A DNA stretch of 64,000 nt from a virus (lineage: Duplodnaviria > Caudoviricetes). Location of the stretch: positions 53,791-117,790 of the IMG/VR virus record IMGVR_UViG_3300028797_000124, one strand, 5' to 3'. Of the stretch, positions 5,301 through 52,683 are shown piece after piece (position 1 is the stretch's first letter; the number at the start of each line of letters is the position of its first letter). The notes beneath the pieces are model-generated. The model was not told the origin of the DNA and did not search any database. It worked only from the letters and a program-made list of their open reading frames with translations. The translations under genes were made by a program, and so were the position numbers.

Positions 5301-6116
5301 GAATTCGATCCGGGTAGATCAGCAACACTTCAGGATGTTATGTATGCCGATGTTGATAGAGACGGTCGTATTGATGCTGTAGATGGATCCCGCATATTGA
5401 CATACTATGCAAACTGTTCATCCGGAAAGTATCCTGGTATGACAGCGGAAGAATCATGGCGGGAATATCTAAGAGAAGCTATGGGTATCATTGTTGGTAG
5501 TGGTGCCCGTGAGGTTTATCAAGTATTGGATATGATATACGATCCAGGTGTTCGCGTTAGATATAATGAACAGAAGGGTCTTACAACATTCCCCAACTAC
5601 TTTGGAAACACAGCGTATGATACTCAGACACTCATGGAAAATGATATGAAGGATGCGCTTGCGATAAAGATTGCGGATACCACTTCGGGTATGTTTGAAT
5701 TCGATCCTGCTACTGCAGGTGGTTTGAGATTTGGTTCCAATGGATATCTTGCCGTAAGAGTCAACAACAACAATCATTATTCATCAATCCTTCCAATCAA
5801 AAACAATCCAGCACATATTGATGATCTCAGCACAGGTTCTCGTGGTCTGAGAATATATAATACTGATAGTGCTTTCAATGTACTCGGTATTCAACTCTCA
5901 AGAGACGGATCTCTCGATAATGGTGAACTGAAGATCGATGCCCAGGGATGCCTTAGACTTTCTGGAGCAATCCGCCCAGATGTTAAGAAACTTAAATTCA
6001 AATGCGGTGCACAAGAAGTTGAGTACGATGGTAACGATGAAGTTACTATCGAATTTGGTCCGGGTATGATCGTTACGGAACACAGCATAACATCAGAAGC
6101 ACATTCACAACTTTAA
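2310..6116 (+). CDS. Tail fibre / receptor-binding protein with an embedded dockerin-like domain
   Basis: AAGGAGG RBS; N-terminal phage tail repeat VNSVNGKTGIVILDANDVGLGNVDN; repeated G-L-x-V beta-shaft motifs; two EF-hand dockerin repeats DLDHDGNVDATEASSVLAYFS and DVDRDGRIDAVDGSRILTYYA. Confidence 0.65.
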   Translation: MAQDKVQLKREEVVGNDVVLQDINPKTKTNSITDSAKGVPLDQTLALIKNMINNKLSRVVNSVNGKTGIVILDANDVGLGNVDNISFGDIKRWVIEYLGDIFGSKRIILRDYLSQIHEILGTNDKIYADTPFYAQAGDATNNDFIAYIGYIYWDETTSSLREEHKEIKVIGFTDESLVYNTNCDIDPYHPDDHRNLSGGGLAVNIWSKEDALKIRRAEGLFTRDGYDPAVLNDTGLYIDKSKVVPNVYFFDGVYGTLTGEGTGMHNIDALVYWSNDPHDTTESNLPILNITINGQAIGMTSTAGGDPVYTLHHPSDLPLKVGDIILTNFAFDQYINPDDASHRENVLYPRMLDSLTCRQPSLGVVTQVADTTNDTPCIIDFKPRRPNVGHGLKLIITDSASGVGPEDSEIGLDLMEGTITMGDGTNIDTNDGNNVSGINAIDKHDPISRSPRSSQAKHLYTVYPTGKSSDLIGGSIDVDSSFILPNFSMCIIPSALNKASSEPAIKNWNPTSPMSNTHAGEVLGNARKFNMVGVNLAKVIMDTNVGDDDHAFARNVSGLRVNTSDDLFDDEWYGYGSGIDTIPNYLTSGGISVNVGDFLGIGTPTELSAAPAEKGSYYNEGKVNVRIDRMQGLNGVAGNRLAVNIAGGYSYAPEGITHNWLEGGLTFVDGGTRAPAQGVLAVNTAEEASGLGIKNSYRVNVRHTNWGNRIMADTFNNVLVVKPAKFTESSTERASLTKSGLEVHKQIQEEDFANKITFTNIYNQRMWLSEGQLHDDIVQNPSNFDTTHIYIAGGKRFIYAEPQGQQTEISLFMYYSDESEYNAILTWIRTGNDSDVPDATWPIHGYTLTPNEHTTANDECLAILRRQCHVLIEEYPSISNDTRYRLKASISEPTTSADLRFPDLDHDGNVDATEASSVLAYFSFLVTVTRVYSTTVGGQKVFYTDPGLTTPLEPVVGRGYMDMNDYLEDSEHAGHIYYMPYNAVKDPGSDIVYLKKYEFDPGRSATLQDVMYADVDRDGRIDAVDGSRILTYYANCSSGKYPGMTAEESWREYLREAMGIIVGSGAREVYQVLDMIYDPGVRVRYNEQKGLTTFPNYFGNTAYDTQTLMENDMKDALAIKIADTTSGMFEFDPATAGGLRFGSNGYLAVRVNNNNHYSSILPIKNNPAHIDDLSTGSRGLRIYNTDSAFNVLGIQLSRDGSLDNGELKIDAQGCLRLSGAIRPDVKKLKFKCGAQEVEYDGNDEVTIEFGPGMIVTEHSITSEAHSQL

Positions 6117-6127
6117 GGAGGTAGCAT

Positions 6128-6622
6128 ATGTCCGAAACTGTCAAAATGACTCTTAATCTGGACAACTCCCTCGAATATGCGGATGGAGGCTCGGGTCCTT
6201 TAAGAGTAAAGAAATCTCTGAAGTCGGGAAATACTTTATCATTTGAATCAGATGGATTATATGCAGAAGCAATACCAGGACAGCCCGGTTCCACAGGAAC
6301 CGGGTATCCTGATAACTATCGCTCTGCGAACGGTGTAATGTCAGGTGTTGCAACTCCAGAAAGTATGAACTCGGTACCGAAAAGAATGGTTGGTCCAAGT
6401 ATAATGCATCGTATATTTACAGCTTCAAGTCCAGATGGTTCGGACATACAACTCAGAACTATCGATAGAGTATATCCTGGCGATTTGTATCGCGTAAAAG
6501 ATACAACACATGGCAATTGGAATTATTACATAATCACAAAGGTTGCGTCAGACAACAGAGTTGTTACTGGTCATACTGGTGAGGTGGCTATAATTCCTTT
6601 AACACAAGAAGACGTAAACTAA
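6128..6622 (+). CDS. Small tail-fibre-associated protein
   Basis: AAGGAGG RBS; N-terminus similar to the next two genes; follows the fibre gene. Confidence 0.5.
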   Translation: MSETVKMTLNLDNSLEYADGGSGPLRVKKSLKSGNTLSFESDGLYAEAIPGQPGSTGTGYPDNYRSANGVMSGVATPESMNSVPKRMVGPSIMHRIFTASSPDGSDIQLRTIDRVYPGDLYRVKDTTHGNWNYYIITKVASDNRVVTGHTGEVAIIPLTQEDVN

Positions 6623-6635
6623 AGGAGGTGTTTAT

Positions 6636-7031
6636 ATGCCGGAGACAATTAAGATTACTTTAGATCCCGATGGTCAGTCTATTGGATTCAGCAACAATTC
6701 AATGGTACTTAAATTGTCAGCTAAAGCAAACAACGGTCTTTCATTTTCAGACGGTAAGTTGGTTGCAACAAAAGCTCCCGATGGTTCAGGAGGTTCTGGT
6801 GGTACTATGAACACTCCTGGAAATGCAATAGGTCCTGTAGATGCGACGGAGAACACATCTCTTAATACGGTGGGTTTCAATTCTACGGTTTCTCGCCACA
6901 AGAAATATACCGGAACGAATTCTTGGCTTCAAACAAATGATGGTCCGGTTATGACAAAGAACTCGAATGGTCAGATGGTACCAAATGGATCTATTGCACA
7001 TTACATGATATTGCACGCAACAGGAGGTTGA
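6636..7031 (+). CDS. Small tail-fibre-associated protein
   Basis: AAGGAGG RBS; LKLSAKANNGLSFSDGKL shaft-like motif and GSGG linker. Confidence 0.5.
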   Translation: MPETIKITLDPDGQSIGFSNNSMVLKLSAKANNGLSFSDGKLVATKAPDGSGGSGGTMNTPGNAIGPVDATENTSLNTVGFNSTVSRHKKYTGTNSWLQTNDGPVMTKNSNGQMVPNGSIAHYMILHATGG

Positions 7032-46854: not shown

Positions 46855-46863
46855 AAAGATATT

Positions 46864-46884
46864 CCGGGGGCAGTGTGCCCCCGG
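46864..46884. terminator. Terminator hairpin between the endolysin and array B
   Basis: CCGGGGGCA-gtg-TGCCCCCGG with T-rich flanks on both strands. Confidence 0.7.
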
Positions 46885-46929
46885 TTTATCCTTTGTTATT
46901 GGTGTTTCGATGTCAGTACGAAGCATCAC

Positions 46930-47742
46930 ATATCATGACCACGCCTTCGCCTTAATCAACGTGACAACAGTCGACTATGCTTTACCCTAACTTATATCAA
47001 CCGCTGCGACATGACACATTACCAGCCGACACTTTACCTCTACAGGACGCGACCGCACCCCGCGAAACGGGACCGCACCGTGACAGAACTTCGCCATACG
47101 GACCATCACCCTGCCTACACGATATACAATCGAACCCTACCGACCCAAACCTCGACAAGACTTTACGAAAGAACACTTGACTTTACTTTACCTTACCATC
47201 ACTTCAAGGCACACCCCACACAAGATATTACCGTACCGCTACCCTGCTCTACGCCGCATGACAATACGTGGCTGCACCAATACCAACACCTTACTACTCC
47301 TGACGATACAGGACCGAAACTATACGCTCTGTAACCACGTCTAACCGGACCATAACTTCACCCTACTGGACTTAACGGCCTTGCACTGAACGGCACAGTA
47401 CCTCCACCTTACGCGACGGTACGCGACGAACCTTTACCAAAACCGAATCAGCACCGTACCTGACCGTTCATAACCAGTCTACACCATTACCAAACAATAC
47501 CATTACCAAACAGCATGAAACATAACCTCACCTCACCAATACTGTGCATTACCATACGCTCAATATAATACATAATTATACCGTTGCTTTATACCGCAAC
47601 ACGTCACCTCACCCATGCGTGACAAAATATAACAGTAATACACACTACAATACCATCACGAGAGCTTATAGTACGAGACCTCTCAGCACCAGAACCATGC
47701 AAAACCCTACTCGACCTGGCTGAACCTAAACTTTACTTTACA
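46930..47742 (-). ncRNA. 5-nt-periodic array B (GY-NNN on minus strand), candidate guide-RNA array
   Basis: Plus strand parses as NNN-RC pentamers, e.g. cgctac cctgc tctac gccgc atgac aatac gtggc tgcac (47237-47277); C/A-rich; no credible ORF; bounded by hairpins. Strand and RNA status are inferred. Confidence 0.6.
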
Positions 47743-47766
47743 TCATTCTTTCGAATAAACAAATGC

Positions 47767-47784
47767 GGGGGTCATTCGACCCCC
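47767..47784 (-). terminator. Hairpin after the Cas7-like/HNH pair
   Basis: GGGGGTC-attc-GACCCCC. Confidence 0.6.
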
Positions 47785-47813
47785 ACGATAAATAGGAAGT
47801 TAGCCATGAATAC

Positions 47814-48245
47814 TCATAACAATTTATACCAATATAAATTGCTAACACGAAGGTCCGTGTAATCTTCATTTCTAAAACGAGCAACATACTTTCCTTCGGT
47901 TGGCATTGGCCTAAAGGTTGTCAATATAAGCTGAGCGGCATCAAGTTTCATTTTTCTGGAACAAGATATCTTGAGCTTACCATCCCATTCCTGTGGCTTT
48001 ACTATTGTTCCAGACACACGGATCTGACCGTCTGTGGAGCATTCAATATATGGATAGTTTGGATGAACTCTCCACTCAAAGTAATCGAGTGTTTTGCCGA
48101 TAATGTCGCAGTATACCTGGGCATTGTCGTCATTCAGGCACATGTCCAGAATATCAGATTTTGATATGTTGTTTTTGACAATGAATCTCGAAAGCTTTTT
48201 AAGTTTCCTTTTGAGTTTCTCTTCTGATTCTGGGATCATACTCAT
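47814..48245 (-). CDS. Degenerate NUMOD4/HNH-like protein
   Basis: EWRVHPNYPYIECSTDGQIR (NUMOD4-like) and ARFRNEDYTDLRVSNLYW (HNH-like, His residues absent); TAATG overlap with the upstream gene. Confidence 0.55.
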   Translation of the reverse strand: MSMIPESEEKLKRKLKKLSRFIVKNNISKSDILDMCLNDDNAQVYCDIIGKTLDYFEWRVHPNYPYIECSTDGQIRVSGTIVKPQEWDGKLKISCSRKMKLDAAQLILTTFRPMPTEGKYVARFRNEDYTDLRVSNLYWYKLL

Positions 48246-49036
48246 TACTCAAAATCCTCCTCAATCTCTCCAATTTCTTCATGATTTATATAATCACAAA
48301 GAGCATCGTTGAAATCAGCATCCTTCGTAGTAACGCCGAGGATAGTTTTGGTGTTTCCACCAATGATCTCACCATCATCGGAAAACTCTTCCCAAAGGAA
48401 TGTTCCCTTTTTGCCGGATCCACGCCACTGGCCAGTACCACTGAATCTTCCCATATTGAGAGCTTCTTCAATCGGGTATCTATATTCAGAATTTGACATA
48501 AGTATTGTGAACCTTGTCCTCGTTCTGGGTGGACATGTAATCGAGGATGCGAGAGCTATTCTCTCACCCTGTTGGGTATTTGCTCTGAGTGGGCGCTGTA
48601 ACATACCTGTCGATTCTCCCTTAGGGAGCACAAGTATTGAGAATTTGTTCGCAAATGCGATACCGTTATCGAGTCTCTTTTTATAATTTGTGAGTGCACC
48701 AGAAGCAGTTTTCTTGTTGTCCAGTTTGAGAAATCCAATTTTCTCCTTCATAAACCCGAGCCATGTGTGGTTCGAAAGTGCAGGTTTTCCGTCAACTGTG
48801 AGGAACTTAGTTGTTCCATTCTCGAGAACTTGTTCTGCACCAAGTGCAGAGATTTCATCAGCCATGTCTGCATCCGTCGCCTTATCTGCAACATACTTGC
48901 TATAAACATCAGCATTTCCCGGGCACGATCCAAGAATCTCCGACGTGAAGATGATTCTGATATTCATCTTCTCAACGAATCCTCCAAATGTTGCTGATGT
49001 GACAACTGTATCCGCCTTTTTAGTTTTAGCAGCCAT
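48245..49036 (-). CDS. Stand-alone Cas7/RAMP-fold-like protein
   Basis: beta1 NIRIIFTSEILG; DGKPALSNHTWLGFMK (cf. G.P.IPGSSLKG); ITCPPRTRTRFTI (cf. E.VP.G..F.F.I); C-terminal G-rich loop EALNMGRFSGTGQWRGSGKKGTF. Confidence 0.65.
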   Translation of the reverse strand: MAAKTKKADTVVTSATFGGFVEKMNIRIIFTSEILGSCPGNADVYSKYVADKATDADMADEISALGAEQVLENGTTKFLTVDGKPALSNHTWLGFMKEKIGFLKLDNKKTASGALTNYKKRLDNGIAFANKFSILVLPKGESTGMLQRPLRANTQQGERIALASSITCPPRTRTRFTILMSNSEYRYPIEEALNMGRFSGTGQWRGSGKKGTFLWEEFSDDGEIIGGNTKTILGVTTKDADFNDALCDYINHEEIGEIEEDFE

Positions 49037-49119
49037 AATATGACCCTTTCTACCCTTTTCCCTGGGTGCAAGGAATTTTGAATTTTACCACAGATACCAA
49101 AAGATATTTGATTCTATAG

Positions 49120-49134
49120 CATATTAATAATATA
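49120..49134 (-). promoter_or_regulatory. Putative phage early promoter TATATTATTAATATG for the Cas7-like gene
   Basis: Exact 15-mer also at 52771-52785 (-) and 62254-62268 (+), each just downstream of a terminator-like hairpin. Confidence 0.6.
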
Positions 49135-49161
49135 ATTATCAAAAAAGAAAATAATAGGAAT

Positions 49162-49188
49162 TTATCAGGGGCATAAAGCCCCTGATAA
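49162..49188 (-). terminator. Terminator at the 3' end of array A
   Basis: TTATCAGGGGC-ataaa-GCCCCTGATAA followed on the minus strand by a T-rich tract. Confidence 0.75.
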
Positions 49189-49206
49189 TTCTTTACTATC
49201 CTATAG

Positions 49207-49630
49207 CTCACCGGACCATAACCTTACACACCTCAACACAAGTCCACTTGAATCTACGTTACCGGGACTAAGCAAGATTACGCAGAAGAGTACCATGACA
49301 TTGCCCTACATTACCTGACCATACCACCACCTCACATGACATTACGCGACCTTACCATGGCATTACCCTACGTTCCTTGACCAAACCATTGCTGAACATA
49401 TCTTACCCACACTAAACCGACACAATGCCTCACCATGCACCCCGTCACGTCACCAGCACTATACTGCACCGAACGATGCGCGACCTCACTCCACCAACAC
49501 CATACCCTTACCTCTCGACATACCACGAAACGTATCCTTACCAATGCTTTAACAGCACTTAACAGTACTTAACAACACCGAAGCCGGACACGACATTGCG
49601 TTACGTAACCATTACAATACGAGACTTACG
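49207..49630 (-). ncRNA. 5-nt-periodic array A (GY-NNN on minus strand) with 31-nt units, candidate guide-RNA array
   Basis: Units start at 49263, 49294, 49325, 49356, 49387 and 49418 (31-nt spacing), each one hexamer plus five pentamers mostly ending in AC/GC, e.g. caccac ctcac atgac attac gcgac cttac. Confidence 0.65.
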
Positions 49631-49678
49631 ATCTGGGAACTTAATCCCAACTTGGCTCAATGGTTGCTATATGCATTC

Positions 49679-50818
49679 TTATTCGTCATTGAGATCTTTA
49701 AGCATTGACATAAATTCTGAGATCTTGTTGCGATCAATATTTGATTGATCGTATGTGTCTACCTTACGCTTTCTTGGCTCAACCTTGACATTATCATCTT
49801 TCGCTTTAGGTCCCTTGTAATGTTCTTTTCTGGTAAATTCTTTACCGTACTTAGAATGAGCTTTATGTTCACGGACAAGCCATTTATCGGTGTGACGAGT
49901 TATTTCACGTCCACTGAAATTGTGCTCACACATGTATATGCGTTTTATATTCCTGAGAGGTTGGTTGTTATACATGTATATGGGAGATTGATCAGTCTTG
50001 CTTTGTTCCCATGTATTAGTTTCCCATATCTCACGTATCTCTGGATTATTTAATGCAAAAACACATGTGCACCAGCTATCGAGTGAACCCATCATAACAT
50101 TTACAATCTTAAGGGAAATTGTATCATCAATTTCGTCAGTATGATCGATGAACCGGTCTCTGAATGATTTCCTGTGTGCTCGAGATGTACTTACCAGGAA
50201 AAATCCCGAAAATATCGGACGGCAGATTTTGTTTTCTTCATCAAACATCAATCCAATGGTTGTGGCAGTTTCAGGATACACACACTCAGATCCAGAATAT
50301 AATGACACTGACATGATTCCGAAATCGAAAGGTTCAAATTTACCACTTTCAATATTAGCCTTGTTATCAAGATACTTCTTTTTCTTAATAATCATATGGA
50401 TGTGTATAGCTGTGTTGTTTGAAGGATCTTTGATATTAATCAACATATCATCATATGGTAATTTTTCAAAATAATATAAGAAATCAGTGTGGTCTTTGGT
50501 TTCTTTAAAATGTGAATCAAGATCCTTCATGATTGGAATACTCGTATCTATCAGCACTTTTGGTTTGTGCTTTAACACCTCTTCGATCAATCTCTCAGAA
50601 TAATGTTCAGAATATATATCAAAACCTAATGGAGATCTTATTCTAATTGGCGGGGCAGGAACGACCCCATCCCAATTGCCAATCTTTTTCGCAAACTTAT
50701 TAATTTTGCGCTGGATTTCTCTATTGGTGCTATTTCGATCGAAACCGAAATCGTGTTGTGCCATCTCGTTCTGGATATCCTGGTCATTGTTAGTCTGTTT
50801 TGGTATTCTTGCTTTCAT
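49679..50818 (-). CDS. Hypothetical phage protein with C-terminal WxVRxH motif
   Basis: KWLVREHKAHSKYGKEFTRKEHYKG resembles the W.VRGH.R...G...W...H.KG tail of many uncharacterised phage proteins. Confidence 0.55.
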   Translation of the reverse strand: MKARIPKQTNNDQDIQNEMAQHDFGFDRNSTNREIQRKINKFAKKIGNWDGVVPAPPIRIRSPLGFDIYSEHYSERLIEEVLKHKPKVLIDTSIPIMKDLDSHFKETKDHTDFLYYFEKLPYDDMLINIKDPSNNTAIHIHMIIKKKKYLDNKANIESGKFEPFDFGIMSVSLYSGSECVYPETATTIGLMFDEENKICRPIFSGFFLVSTSRAHRKSFRDRFIDHTDEIDDTISLKIVNVMMGSLDSWCTCVFALNNPEIREIWETNTWEQSKTDQSPIYMYNNQPLRNIKRIYMCEHNFSGREITRHTDKWLVREHKAHSKYGKEFTRKEHYKGPKAKDDNVKVEPRKRKVDTYDQSNIDRNKISEFMSMLKDLNDE

Positions 50819-50821
50819 TTA

Positions 50822-51691
50822 TTACACCCCAAACTTTGCTGATATTTCTTTATACGCACGACCAGTTCTTACCGTACTTACCAATGCAACGTCAACTTCG
50901 ACATTGTATTTTGCATTAATTGCTTTGATTATTGCATTGGAATTGGCACCCCTGTTTGCCGATATGGCTTCCATGATAAAGATCTCTTTCACCCCTCCAC
51001 CAAGCGTTGATACTTTTCCAGTATTGAAGAGATTCCATCTGATGATAGCAACCTCCAAAATATCATTTGCCGACATGTCTGGTGTTATTGTTTTGATGAC
51101 ATCATAAGCATTTTTATTCAAAAGCGCCATGATTTCTTTAGCGCTTTCAGGCGATGCACCAAATTTGTCGGGAAGATTTTTTCTCAGAGATTGAATGTGA
51201 TCATTACTAATAAGGAAATAATCATCAGTATATCTCTCAAATGTTCCTTTCTTTACGAGTCTCTGGATGGCGCGTTCAGGCATATCTTTCCATTTTTTCA
51301 TGACGGCGTCGATTGTTTTTGTTAATGTCTTTCCGTCACATTTCTTGGAGATAAACTCGGCAATCTCGAGCGCTTCGGCTTTCTGGATCTGTTTATTCAC
51401 TCTTGGTTTCGACCCTTCTCCAGTCCTTACCTTTGTCTCCTTGACATCGTTATCTTCCAAAGGTTCGAGAGTAATCTCTGGTTCATATACCTCGATAGGC
51501 GTAACAGTTTCCTCAATATCGTCAGAAGATAATGATATCCCCGTTCTCCAATTCTGAATGCTGTTTAAATACTCAGATATATCAACCAACTCGGTTGAAA
51601 TCTTTTTGAGGGAATCATATGTGATACCAAGCCTTTCCATCTCTGAGTTAAAAACCGTTATCGCATTTACCGCGTTTACAACACCATTCAT
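50822..51691 (-). CDS. Putative DNA-binding protein (HNH-associated helical modules)
   Basis: Modules ERAIQRLVKKGTFERYTDDYF and ALVSTVRTGRAYKEISAKF resemble the C-terminal modules of 57439..58488. Confidence 0.45.
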   Translation of the reverse strand: MNGVVNAVNAITVFNSEMERLGITYDSLKKISTELVDISEYLNSIQNWRTGISLSSDDIEETVTPIEVYEPEITLEPLEDNDVKETKVRTGEGSKPRVNKQIQKAEALEIAEFISKKCDGKTLTKTIDAVMKKWKDMPERAIQRLVKKGTFERYTDDYFLISNDHIQSLRKNLPDKFGASPESAKEIMALLNKNAYDVIKTITPDMSANDILEVAIIRWNLFNTGKVSTLGGGVKEIFIMEAISANRGANSNAIIKAINAKYNVEVDVALVSTVRTGRAYKEISAKFGV

Positions 51692-52683
51692 TAGTTAACA
51701 CCTCCTGCTTTCTTTGTACGATAATCAGCATATATTGTTGAAATTGTCTTTGCTGTTGATGATTTCCCATTAATCACATTTCCGATATTAGATGGGTTAA
51801 CATCGCATCCAAATTTTTCTTTTATGAGTTTTGCATAATACGATGCTTTCTTATCAGCCTTTGTATCAAGGATTGAAATTGTCATGATCTCAATTTCCTG
51901 ATTTGAAATCTTCTGGTTCAGCCCGACTTTTCTGCGTAACATTTCTTCGACTAATTCGACATCCTTTGTTTGCTTCAATAAACCATAACAATCCAACCCG
52001 GTTCTTTCACCCATCTGATCTAACGTTGGTACAATGCTTCCATCTTCATAGATGAAGAACTTATCGGTGATTGTCGAAAAAGCTTTCTTGGTTTTGATTT
52101 CTTCAATGAACTCCCTGGACACCGGGGGATACGATCCTTCATACTTTGTCAAGGTAACATCTATATCTCCATCGGCGTCTATCAATCTTCTTGAGATATC
52201 TTCGATTAGAGATACTTTTGGATCTGGGCGATCTCCTTCATACCAGAAAATGTTATTCGGCGAAAGATTACGGCGGTCCCCGTCTTTGTATCCAATATAG
52301 TTTACCTTACTTGGATCATCTGACTTTATGCCAAAAGCCATTGCGACTAAAGTACTACACCTCTTAATGTCAGCACCTTTCTTAATACGCATGTCGCCAT
52401 CATACCAGAACGGAGTAAACAATCCTCCAGTGACGGCGTCGTAAAATTTTCCATCAGACGAAACGTTGATACCGGCTGAGCGAGCTTGATTCATCTCGAT
52501 TTCAGCATCTGAATCTCCGAAAAAAGCATCCAGTTTCTCAAGACCGATTTTAGCAGGTGCGCTTATTGAAGCGATTGCTTCCACTTCGGTTCTTGATGCT
52601 GAGTTTCTGAGATCTCCAGCACAGTTCTTCACGGCTTTGACGGCTTCCGTTATTGTCATTATTGCTTTGGATATGTCTGTCAT
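51691..52683 (-). CDS. Degenerate HNH-like protein
   Basis: LVAMAFG...YIGYKDGDRRNLSPNNIFW (HNH-like without His) plus a helical module ending TITDKFF. Confidence 0.5.
   Translation of the reverse strand: MTDISKAIMTITEAVKAVKNCAGDLRNSASRTEVEAIASISAPAKIGLEKLDAFFGDSDAEIEMNQARSAGINVSSDGKFYDAVTGGLFTPFWYDGDMRIKKGADIKRCSTLVAMAFGIKSDDPSKVNYIGYKDGDRRNLSPNNIFWYEGDRPDPKVSLIEDISRRLIDADGDIDVTLTKYEGSYPPVSREFIEEIKTKKAFSTITDKFFIYEDGSIVPTLDQMGERTGLDCYGLLKQTKDVELVEEMLRRKVGLNQKISNQEIEIMTISILDTKADKKASYYAKLIKEKFGCDVNPSNIGNVINGKSSTAKTISTIYADYRTKKAGGVN

What the first reader, a model, noticed from the sequence alone, without database searches (positions are those of the whole stretch)
49207..49630. Array A has a second-order 31-nt register (hexamer + 5 pentamers)
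Seen: phase slips of +1 nt occur at an extra C after AC (GGT on minus). Units begin at 49263, 49294, 49325, 49356, 49387 and 49418, exactly 31 nt apart (cgggac taagc aagat tacgc agaag agtac | catgac attgc cctac attac ctgac catac | caccac ctcac atgac attac gcgac cttac | catggc attac cctac gttcc ttgac caaac | cattgc tgaac atatc ttacc cacac taaac), followed by 36- and 41-nt units. The variable triplets differ between units, so this is not a simple satellite. Inference: the hexamer is a processing or filament-boundary mark, and each unit is a separate ~31-nt guide carrying ~18 variable nt.
Basis: partly seen in the sequence, partly recalled or inferred. Interest (0 to 1): 0.85.

Follow-up and report, generated by a model that had tools for sequence, protein, structure and literature searches.

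The report
Staggered guide-RNA array of phage VIPR
The 31-base register is real and is shared by many related phages, but it belongs to a VIPR system, a phage RNA-guided DNA-silencing system first described in 2026 preprints, so this is a new and somewhat unusual member of a known kind.

Summary
On the minus (sense) strand, array A is a run of G-Y-N-N-N pentamers. Its phase slips are almost always +1, and the added base is G. Five consecutive 31-nt blocks (49263-49417) are followed by blocks of 36 and 41 nt.

The same grammar holds in array B, in close relatives, and beside about 150 further homologues of the neighbouring 263-aa gene. Slips are far more evenly spaced than chance. The periodic G evolves about four times more slowly than the variable positions.

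The 263-aa protein folds as a minimal Cas7/Csm3-type RAMP. It is a distant relative of SUSP1 Vipr (PDB 36pp).

The locus is therefore a VIPR system (bioRxiv 10.64898/2026.04.26.720920 and .720927). In these systems one Vipr protomer binds each pentamer. The preprint already lists YNNNG repeats and "staggered arrays with overlapping vrRNAs" offset by 1 nt.

Earlier notes of this scan on other genomes had reached VIPR, and that lead took me to the papers.

What is new here is the quantified grammar: 5n+1 blocks of mostly 5-7 repeats, the extra G completing a GGY, and a boundary consensus.

The parts
49207..49630 (-). Array A. Upstream staggered vrRNA array of about 85 G-Y-N-N-N repeats on the minus strand, in blocks of 5n+1 nt.
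   Evidence: Parse; autocorrelation; RNA fold no more stable than shuffles, z=-0.47; no Rfam match.
49263..49417 (-). Five consecutive 31-nt blocks, each of six repeats plus one extra G. This is the register named in the finding.
   Evidence: The blocks at 49294 and 49356 are paralogous, sharing 15/18 variable positions.
49162..49188 (-). Terminator-like hairpin that closes array A on the minus strand. It lies just upstream of the vipr promoter region.
   Evidence: 11-pair stem, read on both strands.
48245..49036 (-). vipr gene. It encodes a 263-aa minimal RAMP (Cas7/Csm3-like) protein with the G-loop GTGQWRGSG.
   Evidence: AF2 model with pLDDT 80. Csm3/Cmr4/type VII Cas7 are the top structural hits, with Z up to 12. 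hhalign to the SUSP1 Vipr family gives E=1e-4. There are 2,217 representative relatives. Between strains pN/pS is about 0.07.
47814..48245 (-). 143-aa HNH-endonuclease-like gene that overlaps the vipr stop codon. It is a candidate accessory (vap-like) gene or a homing endonuclease.
   Evidence: PHROG 959, E=9e-12. 72% identical to the syntenic gene in L002. Absent from L005-L007. No similarity to SUSP1 vap1.
47765..47786 (-). Terminator-like hairpin between the HNH gene and array B.
46900..47750 (-). Array B. Downstream staggered vrRNA array of about 167 repeats, with blocks mostly of 36 nt.
   Evidence: A metatranscriptome contig covers 46925-47472 (weak evidence).
46864..46884 (.). Bidirectional intrinsic terminator. 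It ends array B on the minus strand and the endolysin gene on the plus strand.
   Evidence: The equivalent terminator follows the array in L002.

Best explanation
Arrays A and B are vrRNA arrays of a VIPR (Viral Interference Programmable Repeat) system carried by a rumen jumbo phage.

The minus strand is transcribed into G-Y-N-N-N repeats, which the preprint writes as YNNNG. By analogy with the solved SUSP1 complex, one copy of the adjacent 263-aa Vipr protein binds each pentamer. It sequesters the fixed G-Y and exposes the variable bases, which read double-stranded DNA of competing genetic elements in a gapped fashion.

The second-order register is the 'staggered' array architecture. Every 5-8 repeats (most often 6, giving 31 nt, or 7, giving 36 nt) one extra G is inserted. 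This shifts the pentamer frame by +1 and creates a full canonical GGY at the start of the next block. I read this GG junction as punctuation that ends one short vrRNA or filament and starts the next.

Shown here:
- the grammar of the arrays;
- its conservation and its linkage to the Vipr-like gene;
- the RAMP fold of the protein.

Inferred from the preprints: one protomer per repeat and DNA targeting.

Not shown: that the RNA is cut, or the filament interrupted, at the junctions.
For: Fold of the protein
- RAMP/Cas7 fold.
- A weak G-loop match to Csm4/Cas7 in PDB sequences.

Relation to the published Vipr
- SUSP1 Vipr is PDB 36pp.
- hhalign of the window's family against SUSP1 Vipr is colinear over 180 columns, E=0.0015.
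- Against the SUSP1-type family profile it gives E=1e-4, probability 57%.
- The G-loop D-W-R of SUSP1 aligns to Q-W-R here. W178 and R179 contact G2 and Y3; D177 and H17 contact G1. This fits an array that keeps G-Y but has lost the first G inside blocks.

Locus layout
- The order is array, vipr, small gene, array, on one strand, as in SUSP1.

Linkage of gene and array
- A sense-strand array with G every 5 nt lies next to the gene in 80/80 IMG/VR loci and 72/79 genome loci. It is also present in L002-L008 and L010.
- No other gene family is shared by these loci.

Grammar across the family
- 70 distinct arrays hold 6,174 pentamers, 1,078 hexamers and only 145 tetramers. Block lengths peak at 21, 26, 31, 36 and 41 nt.
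- Slips are evenly spaced.

Boundary signal
- In the L005 clade the last unit is G-C-N-W-U-G and the first is G-U-A-U. In the window, G-Y conformity is 97% at block ends against 85% inside blocks.

Selection
- The periodic G differs at 2.7% of sites between strains. The other positions differ at 7-12%. The gene has pS=0.235.

Array turnover
- Most indels between strains are 5n or 5n+1 nt long.

Literature
- YNNNG repeats, staggered arrays, one protomer per repeat, and a helix of six subunits per turn.
Against: - No small-RNA ends were available, so processing at the GG junction is unproven. The preprint itself confirmed only the ribozyme-interspersed and single-vrRNA architectures by sRNA-seq, not the staggered one.
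- Blocks of 5-7 repeats are shorter than the 9-16 repeats of characterised vrRNAs. Under the NN code they would give only 10-14 informative bases, which is low for specific targeting.
- There is no structured 3' tail or ribozyme between blocks.
- No natural target was found under any rule tried.
- Sequence homology to the characterised Vipr is weak (probability 17-57%).
- Array B sits behind a terminator-like hairpin, and no promoter of its own is recognisable.
Confidence: 0.6

Rival explanations
1. This is the same VIPR system, but the filament runs continuously through the array. The extra G is an unread bulge. It would re-phase the RNA against the helical protein filament about once per turn and would not be a guide boundary.
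For: The SUSP1 binary filament has six subunits per turn and the DNA-bound form has five. This is close to the modal 5-7 repeats per block. Short blocks alone give little specificity. No tail, ribozyme or hairpin separates the blocks.
Against: Block length varies from 4 to 10 repeats within a single array, whereas a strict helical requirement should give one value. SUSP1 vrRNAs run 15 repeats with no slip. The junction carries its own sequence consensus beyond the G. Blocks are gained and lost as units between strains.
Confidence: 0.25
2. The 31/36-nt register is only history. An ancestral block of six or seven pentamers plus one base was amplified in tandem, and the slip itself has no function.
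For: TRF finds a 31-nt repeat with 63% matches. Two blocks of array A share 15/18 variable positions. Arrays differ between strains by block-sized indels.
Against: All other block pairs are at chance identity, with a median of 28%. Even so, the extra base is G in 90-100% of junctions, and +1 slips outnumber -1 slips about 7:1 across 70 arrays from many phyla. Block lengths differ within arrays. The junction consensus is conserved within clades.
Confidence: 0.08
3. The array is not an RNA guide at all. It would be a decayed pentanucleotide microsatellite or a DNA-level structural or binding array. The 5.17-bp mean period is about half a helical turn.
For: The mean period of 31/6 to 36/7 nt doubles to about 10.3 bp. 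Short perfect pentamer runs exist, such as ACTTT x4.4 at 47175.
Against: Only positions 1-2 carry information (0.8-1.6 bits, against 0.01-0.16 at positions 3-5), which decay of a microsatellite would not produce. The array always lies on the sense strand of a RAMP gene and ends in an intrinsic terminator. RNA contigs cover both arrays (weak evidence). The homologous SUSP1 arrays are shown to be RNAs bound by Vipr.
Confidence: 0.03
4. The solo Cas7-like protein and its RNA are an anti-CRISPR decoy. They would poison or sequester host type III or type I complexes rather than act as a targeting system of their own.
For: The closest solved folds are Csm3/Cmr4. Phage RNA anti-CRISPRs that mimic repeats are known (PMC10651486).
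Against: The arrays do not resemble CRISPR repeats. Their period is 5 nt, not the 6 nt of Cas7 backbones. The family occurs across many phyla whatever the host CRISPR type. The characterised relatives act as DNA silencers.
Confidence: 0.03

Closest known systems
VIPR systems with staggered vrRNA arrays and YNNNG/NNNNG repeats (bioRxiv 10.64898/2026.04.26.720920, fig. S18 legend and type-classification methods)
   Same: Phage-encoded minimal RAMP gene with flanking sense-strand pentanucleotide arrays. One conserved G-containing motif per 5 nt alternates with variable bases. Successive units are offset by 1 nt, so that the end of one marks the start of the next. There are no cas genes and no CRISPR repeats.
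   Different: The preprint gives no numbers for the stagger in its text, and it did not confirm this architecture by RNA sequencing. Here the stagger is quantified: the slip is +1 G; blocks are 26-41 nt, mode 31/36; and there is a junction consensus. I could not assign the type (I-VII). The host is a rumen jumbo phage with an AR9/PBS1-like polymerase.
Type II VIPR of Escherichia phage SUSP1 (Vipr YP_009199429.1, PDB 36pp; bioRxiv 10.64898/2026.04.26.720927)
   Same: Same gene order on one strand: array, vipr, small gene, arrays. The pentamer period is the same. The G-loop W-R is conserved. Homology is weak but colinear (E 1e-4 to 1.5e-3).
   Different: In SUSP1:
- the repeats are GGY/NN;
- each vrRNA has 9-16 repeats with no slip, its own promoter and a pseudoknotted 3' tail;
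- the accessory gene is vap1.

Here:
- the repeats are xGY/NN(N);
- the first G is present only at block starts;
- there are no tails;
- blocks hold 5-8 repeats;
- the G-loop has Q in place of the G1-reading Asp;
- the neighbouring gene is an HNH protein unrelated to vap1.
Cas7 backbone of class 1 CRISPR effectors (Csm3/Cmr4; e.g. PDB 6IFK, 9G9A)
   Same: RRM core, glycine-rich loop and thumb. The protein polymerises along a guide RNA with a fixed step. The best structural matches have Z 10-12.
   Different: The CRISPR Cas7 step is 6 nt and is not base-specific. It needs Cas5/Cas6-defined repeat handles and works with other Cas subunits. Here the step is 5 nt with a fixed G-Y, the gene stands alone, and there are no CRISPR repeats.
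TIGR-Tas systems (PMC12045711)
   Same: Phage-borne single small protein next to a long array of short conserved and variable segments ending in an intrinsic terminator. The array is processed into roughly 36-nt guides with split spacers.
   Different: Tas proteins have a Nop domain, not a RAMP fold. TIGR units have edge and loop repeats and two spacers of about 9 nt. They have no 5-nt period.

Membership tests
VIPR system | Vipr protein: a minimal single-RRM RAMP with a glycine-rich loop and a thumb | tested here: met
   AF2 model with pLDDT 80. All top Foldseek and VIA hits are Csm3, Cmr4, type VII Cas7 or gRAMP domains, with Z up to 12. The G-loop GTGQWRGSG is invariant or nearly so.
VIPR system | Sequence homology to an experimentally characterised Vipr (SUSP1, PDB 36pp) | tested here: inconclusive
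   hhalign profile against the single sequence: E=0.0015, probability 17%, colinear over 180 columns. Profile against profile: E=1e-4, probability 57% over the C-terminal 107 columns including the G-loop. tblastn finds nothing.
VIPR system | Adjacent sense-strand tandem pentanucleotide array with a conserved G-containing motif alternating with hypervariable bases (GGY/NN or NNNGG, YNNNG, NNNNG) | tested here: met
   In G-Y-N-N-N, G is 87-95%, Y is 90-96%, and positions 3-5 carry <0.2 bit. The same holds next to the gene in about 160 loci.
VIPR system | Minimal viral locus: no other cas genes, no CRISPR array | tested here: met
   There is one Vipr-like gene in the 118-kb record. Neighbours have no Cas, Pfam or PADLOC matches. 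No other gene family is shared across the loci.
VIPR system | vrRNA is expressed and co-purifies with Vipr | not testable with these tools
   The only data are contigs from one metatranscriptome, covering 46925-47472, 48529-48876 and 49120-49387. DNA carry-over is not excluded, and there is no strand or end information.
VIPR system | Gapped (1-nt-skip) recognition of DNA of competing elements | tested here: inconclusive
   Eight pairing rules, tried on 1.2 Mb of local sequence, gave hits no better than controls. Four IMG/VR pattern scans gave either nothing or 11 chance-like hits in unrelated genes.
Staggered vrRNA array (VIPR fig. S18) | Successive vrRNAs offset by 1 nt, with the end of one marking the start of the next | tested here: met
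   At the DNA level, +1 slips with an added G come every 5-8 repeats. That these slips are RNA ends is not tested.
Class 1 CRISPR-Cas effector | CRISPR repeat-spacer array and partner subunits (Cas5, Cas6, Cas8/10, Cas11) | tested here: not met
   TRF and repeat scans show no direct repeats of CRISPR size. No partner genes were found.

The most novel reading that the evidence does not exclude
The single extra G is a complete, minimal punctuation system. It restores a canonical GGY at the start of each block in a lineage whose Vipr has lost the first-G pocket (D to Q, H to S/T). In doing so it sets where a filament starts and stops. One long transcript, without tails, ribozymes or a dedicated nuclease, would then be read as dozens of one-turn (5-8 protomer) mini-guides. 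Alternatively, these repeats read three bases each, which would be a second variant of the noncontiguous code.
Probability: 0.3. Interest if true: 0.65.

Novelty: new member of a known kind. Interest (0 to 1): 0.45.

Why it matters
VIPR is a months-old discovery. Only its type II form, with discrete tailed vrRNAs, has been studied in detail.

The family seen here is very large: 2,217 representative clusters, in gut and rumen phages and prophages of Firmicutes, Bacteroidota and other phyla. It appears to use the staggered, tail-less architecture throughout.

The quantified grammar gives a concrete handle on two questions. How are guides delimited when there is no handle or tail? And is the code two or three bases per repeat in YNNNG systems? 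The grammar consists of +1 G, blocks of 5-8 repeats, a junction consensus, and loss of the G1-reading residues.

If the junction alone phases the filaments, it would be the simplest guide-array punctuation known, and it would be useful for multiplexed programmable repression.

It also flags a rumen jumbo phage as carrying about 45 candidate guides.

Tried and rejected
- Homo-oligomer prediction of the 263-aa protein (three copies) gave no verdict. One control scored within 0.2 of the complex. It is not used as evidence either way.
- Contiguous complementarity of 30-nt windows of both arrays to the phage's own 118 kb: best 22/30, the same as the reversed-sequence control.
- Gapped target search under eight rules (variable positions 3-4, 4-5 or 3-5; skip 0-3) against 1.2 Mb of local loci: no better than controls.
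- IMG/VR exact-pattern scans:
  - a 10-repeat block under the NN/1-skip rule, 0 hits;
  - an 8-repeat block as a contiguous 24-mer, 0 hits;
  - the same block under NN/1-skip, 11 hits in unrelated genes and frames, as expected by chance.
- Rfam at gathering and at E<=1: no family in the arrays, so no hammerhead spacers. None either in the odd L009 repeats.
- Pfam, PHROGs and PADLOC do not know the protein family.
- blastn and tblastn against GenBank phages: only uncultured gut phages.
- Early literature searches with Cas7 and periodicity wording found nothing.
- Testing whether indel breakpoints fall on block boundaries was inconclusive, because gap placement is ambiguous in repeats.
- A coding reading was rejected: the longest ORF in array A is 58 aa, and the 5-nt period is incompatible with codons.

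Full report
**What is in the sequence.**
The window is the last 64 kb of a 117.8-kb IMG/VR phage record. Its family-B DNA polymerase is distantly AR9/PBS1-like. Near-identical DNA occurs in bovine, sheep and goat gut runs.

A scan of the whole record for dinucleotides recurring at lag 5 finds only two places: array A at about 49207-49630 and array B at about 46900-47750. In both, AC recurs every 5 nt on the + strand.

In array A the AC autocorrelation peaks at lags 5, 10/11, 15/16, 20/21, 25/26 and 31. The lag-31 peak (30 pairs) is as high as the lag-5 peak (31 pairs).

With equal penalties for +1 and -1 slips, hexamers outnumber tetramers 15:2 in A and 25:3 in B. The added base is C on the + strand in about 90% of cases. 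Slips are spaced more evenly than random placement: P=0.005 for A, <0.0002 elsewhere.

Only two of the five positions carry information, which a decayed microsatellite would not give.

Blocks are unique at their variable positions, with a median identity of 28%. The exception is the pair at 49294 and 49356, which share 15/18.

**Which strand, and what surrounds it.**
The flanking genes are on the minus strand. Terminator-like hairpins on the minus strand follow array A (49188-49162), the HNH gene (47786-47765) and array B (46884-46864).

The sense RNA is therefore G-Y-N-N-N with an extra G at each slip. In other words, a GG doublet occurs every 5-8 repeats.

The RNA folds no better than shuffles, z=-0.47, and matches no Rfam family.

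Contigs from one metatranscriptome cover parts of both arrays and of the gene between them. This is only a weak hint of transcription.

**The protein between the arrays.**
The 263-aa ORF (48245-49036, minus strand) has no Pfam, PHROG or PADLOC match.

It has many relatives: 99 close ones and 2,217 representative clusters at E<=0.001.

Its AlphaFold model (pLDDT 80) matches Csm3, Cmr4, type VII and type IV Cas7 and gRAMP domains. Foldseek gives E about 1e-5, and VIA gives Z up to 12.

It is under strong purifying selection: pN=0.016 against pS=0.235 in 15 independent strain pairs.

**Gene and array travel together.**
Close relatives (58-68% identity) carry GT/GC pentamer arrays directly downstream on the gene's strand, ending in an intrinsic terminator. 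They show the same 5n+1 blocks. L005 has 417 repeats over 2.1 kb, with blocks mostly of 31 and 36 nt.

Relatives at about 40% identity in temperate phages keep a G every 5 nt. In L008 this holds in 62 of 62 pentamers. Their autocorrelation peaks fall at 26, 31 and 36.

The strongest sense-strand G-period-5 signal lies immediately beside the gene in 80 of 80 IMG/VR loci and in 72 of 79 loci from bacterial assemblies of many phyla.

No other gene family is shared.

Pooled over 70 distinct arrays there are 6,174 pentamers, 1,078 hexamers and 145 tetramers. Block lengths peak at 21, 26, 31, 36 and 41 nt.

Between strains the periodic G differs at 2.7% of sites, against 7-12% for the other positions.

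Arrays change mainly by indels of 5n or 5n+1 nt.

Junctions carry their own consensus. In the L005 clade the last unit is G-C-N-W-U-G and the first is G-U-A-U. In the window, G-Y conformity is 97% at block ends against 85% inside.

**What it is.**
I read the papers myself.

The preprint 10.64898/2026.04.26.720920 describes phage-encoded Vipr proteins. These are minimal RAMPs that branch before Cas5, Cas6 and Cas7. It also describes vrRNAs made of GGY/NN pentamers whose NN bases read double-stranded DNA with one skipped base per repeat. The systems silence competing phages and satellites.

Its methods list alternative NNNGG, YNNNG and NNNNG repeats. Its text and the fig. [quoted passage not shown] That architecture was not among those confirmed by small-RNA sequencing.

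The structural preprint 10.64898/2026.04.26.720927 reports the following:
- one protomer binds each repeat;
- the helix has six subunits per turn, or five when DNA is bound;
- G1 is read by H17 and D177;
- G2 is read by the thumb R138 and by W178;
- Y3 is read by R179 and neighbouring residues.

**Comparison with SUSP1.**
SUSP1's locus has the same order as the window. Its Vipr is PDB 36pp.

The window's family aligns to it weakly but colinearly. D-W-R of the G-loop falls on Q-W-R, and H17 falls on S/T.

That pattern fits the array seen here. G2 and Y3 are kept in every repeat. The G1 position is free inside blocks, and a full GGY appears only where the extra G is inserted. This structural reading is inference.

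**Verdict on the interpretation.**
The Cas7-like partner, the 5n+1 rule in homologous arrays and the boundary character of the junction are supported.

The claim that each 31-nt unit is a separately processed guide agrees with the published sketch of staggered arrays. It remains untested, because I had no reads with ends.

A continuous filament in which the G is bulged roughly once per helical turn remains a serious rival. Blocks of 5-7 repeats would give only 10-14 informative bases under the NN code.

Target searches under several rules found nothing above chance. The databases and the exact-match tools on hand were not adequate for that question.

**Novelty.**
The system and the existence of staggered arrays are already described, so this is a new member of a known kind.

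The added value is the quantified grammar, its generality across a very large gut and rumen clade, and the link between the lost G1-reading residues and the xGY repeat.

Noticed in passing
window 47814-48245 (-): A 143-aa HNH-endonuclease-like gene overlaps the vipr stop codon. It is 72% identical and syntenic in L002-L004 but absent from L005-L007. It could be a nuclease-type VIPR accessory gene or a homing endonuclease. A second HNH-like ORF lies at 51691-52683.
   Followed up: partly
L009:6620-7060: A Vipr homologue at about 37% identity is followed not by a pentamer array but by six structured units of about 100 nt. Each has a conserved CAGCTA...CTTACTTCA core inside a variable stem. There is no Rfam match. 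It may be another vrRNA architecture.
   Followed up: partly
P0100, P0101: Two representative proteins of 432-458 aa match the Vipr profile twice, so tandem-fused double Vipr proteins exist.
   Followed up: no
window 49294-49324 and 49356-49386: Two 31-nt blocks share 15 of 18 variable positions. If they are guides, they would address variants of one target.
   Followed up: partly
window 46860-49700 compared with runs X3, X5 and X19: Related rumen strains differ inside the arrays by 5-nt insertions or deletions (47188, 47536) and by larger skips (about 47, 58 and 119 nt). The vipr gene differs only by point changes.
   Followed up: partly
L005, L006, L007 genes at 6001-6855: The three vipr genes differ at 5-6% of nucleotides yet encode an identical protein. 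Their arrays range from about 1.3 to 2.1 kb.
   Followed up: yes
window 47750-47720 (-) and L002:7290-7330: Array B and the L002 array both begin with a shared GATGTAAAG-like motif just after a terminator-like hairpin. It may be a start signal for the array transcript in phages with non-canonical RNA polymerases.
   Followed up: no
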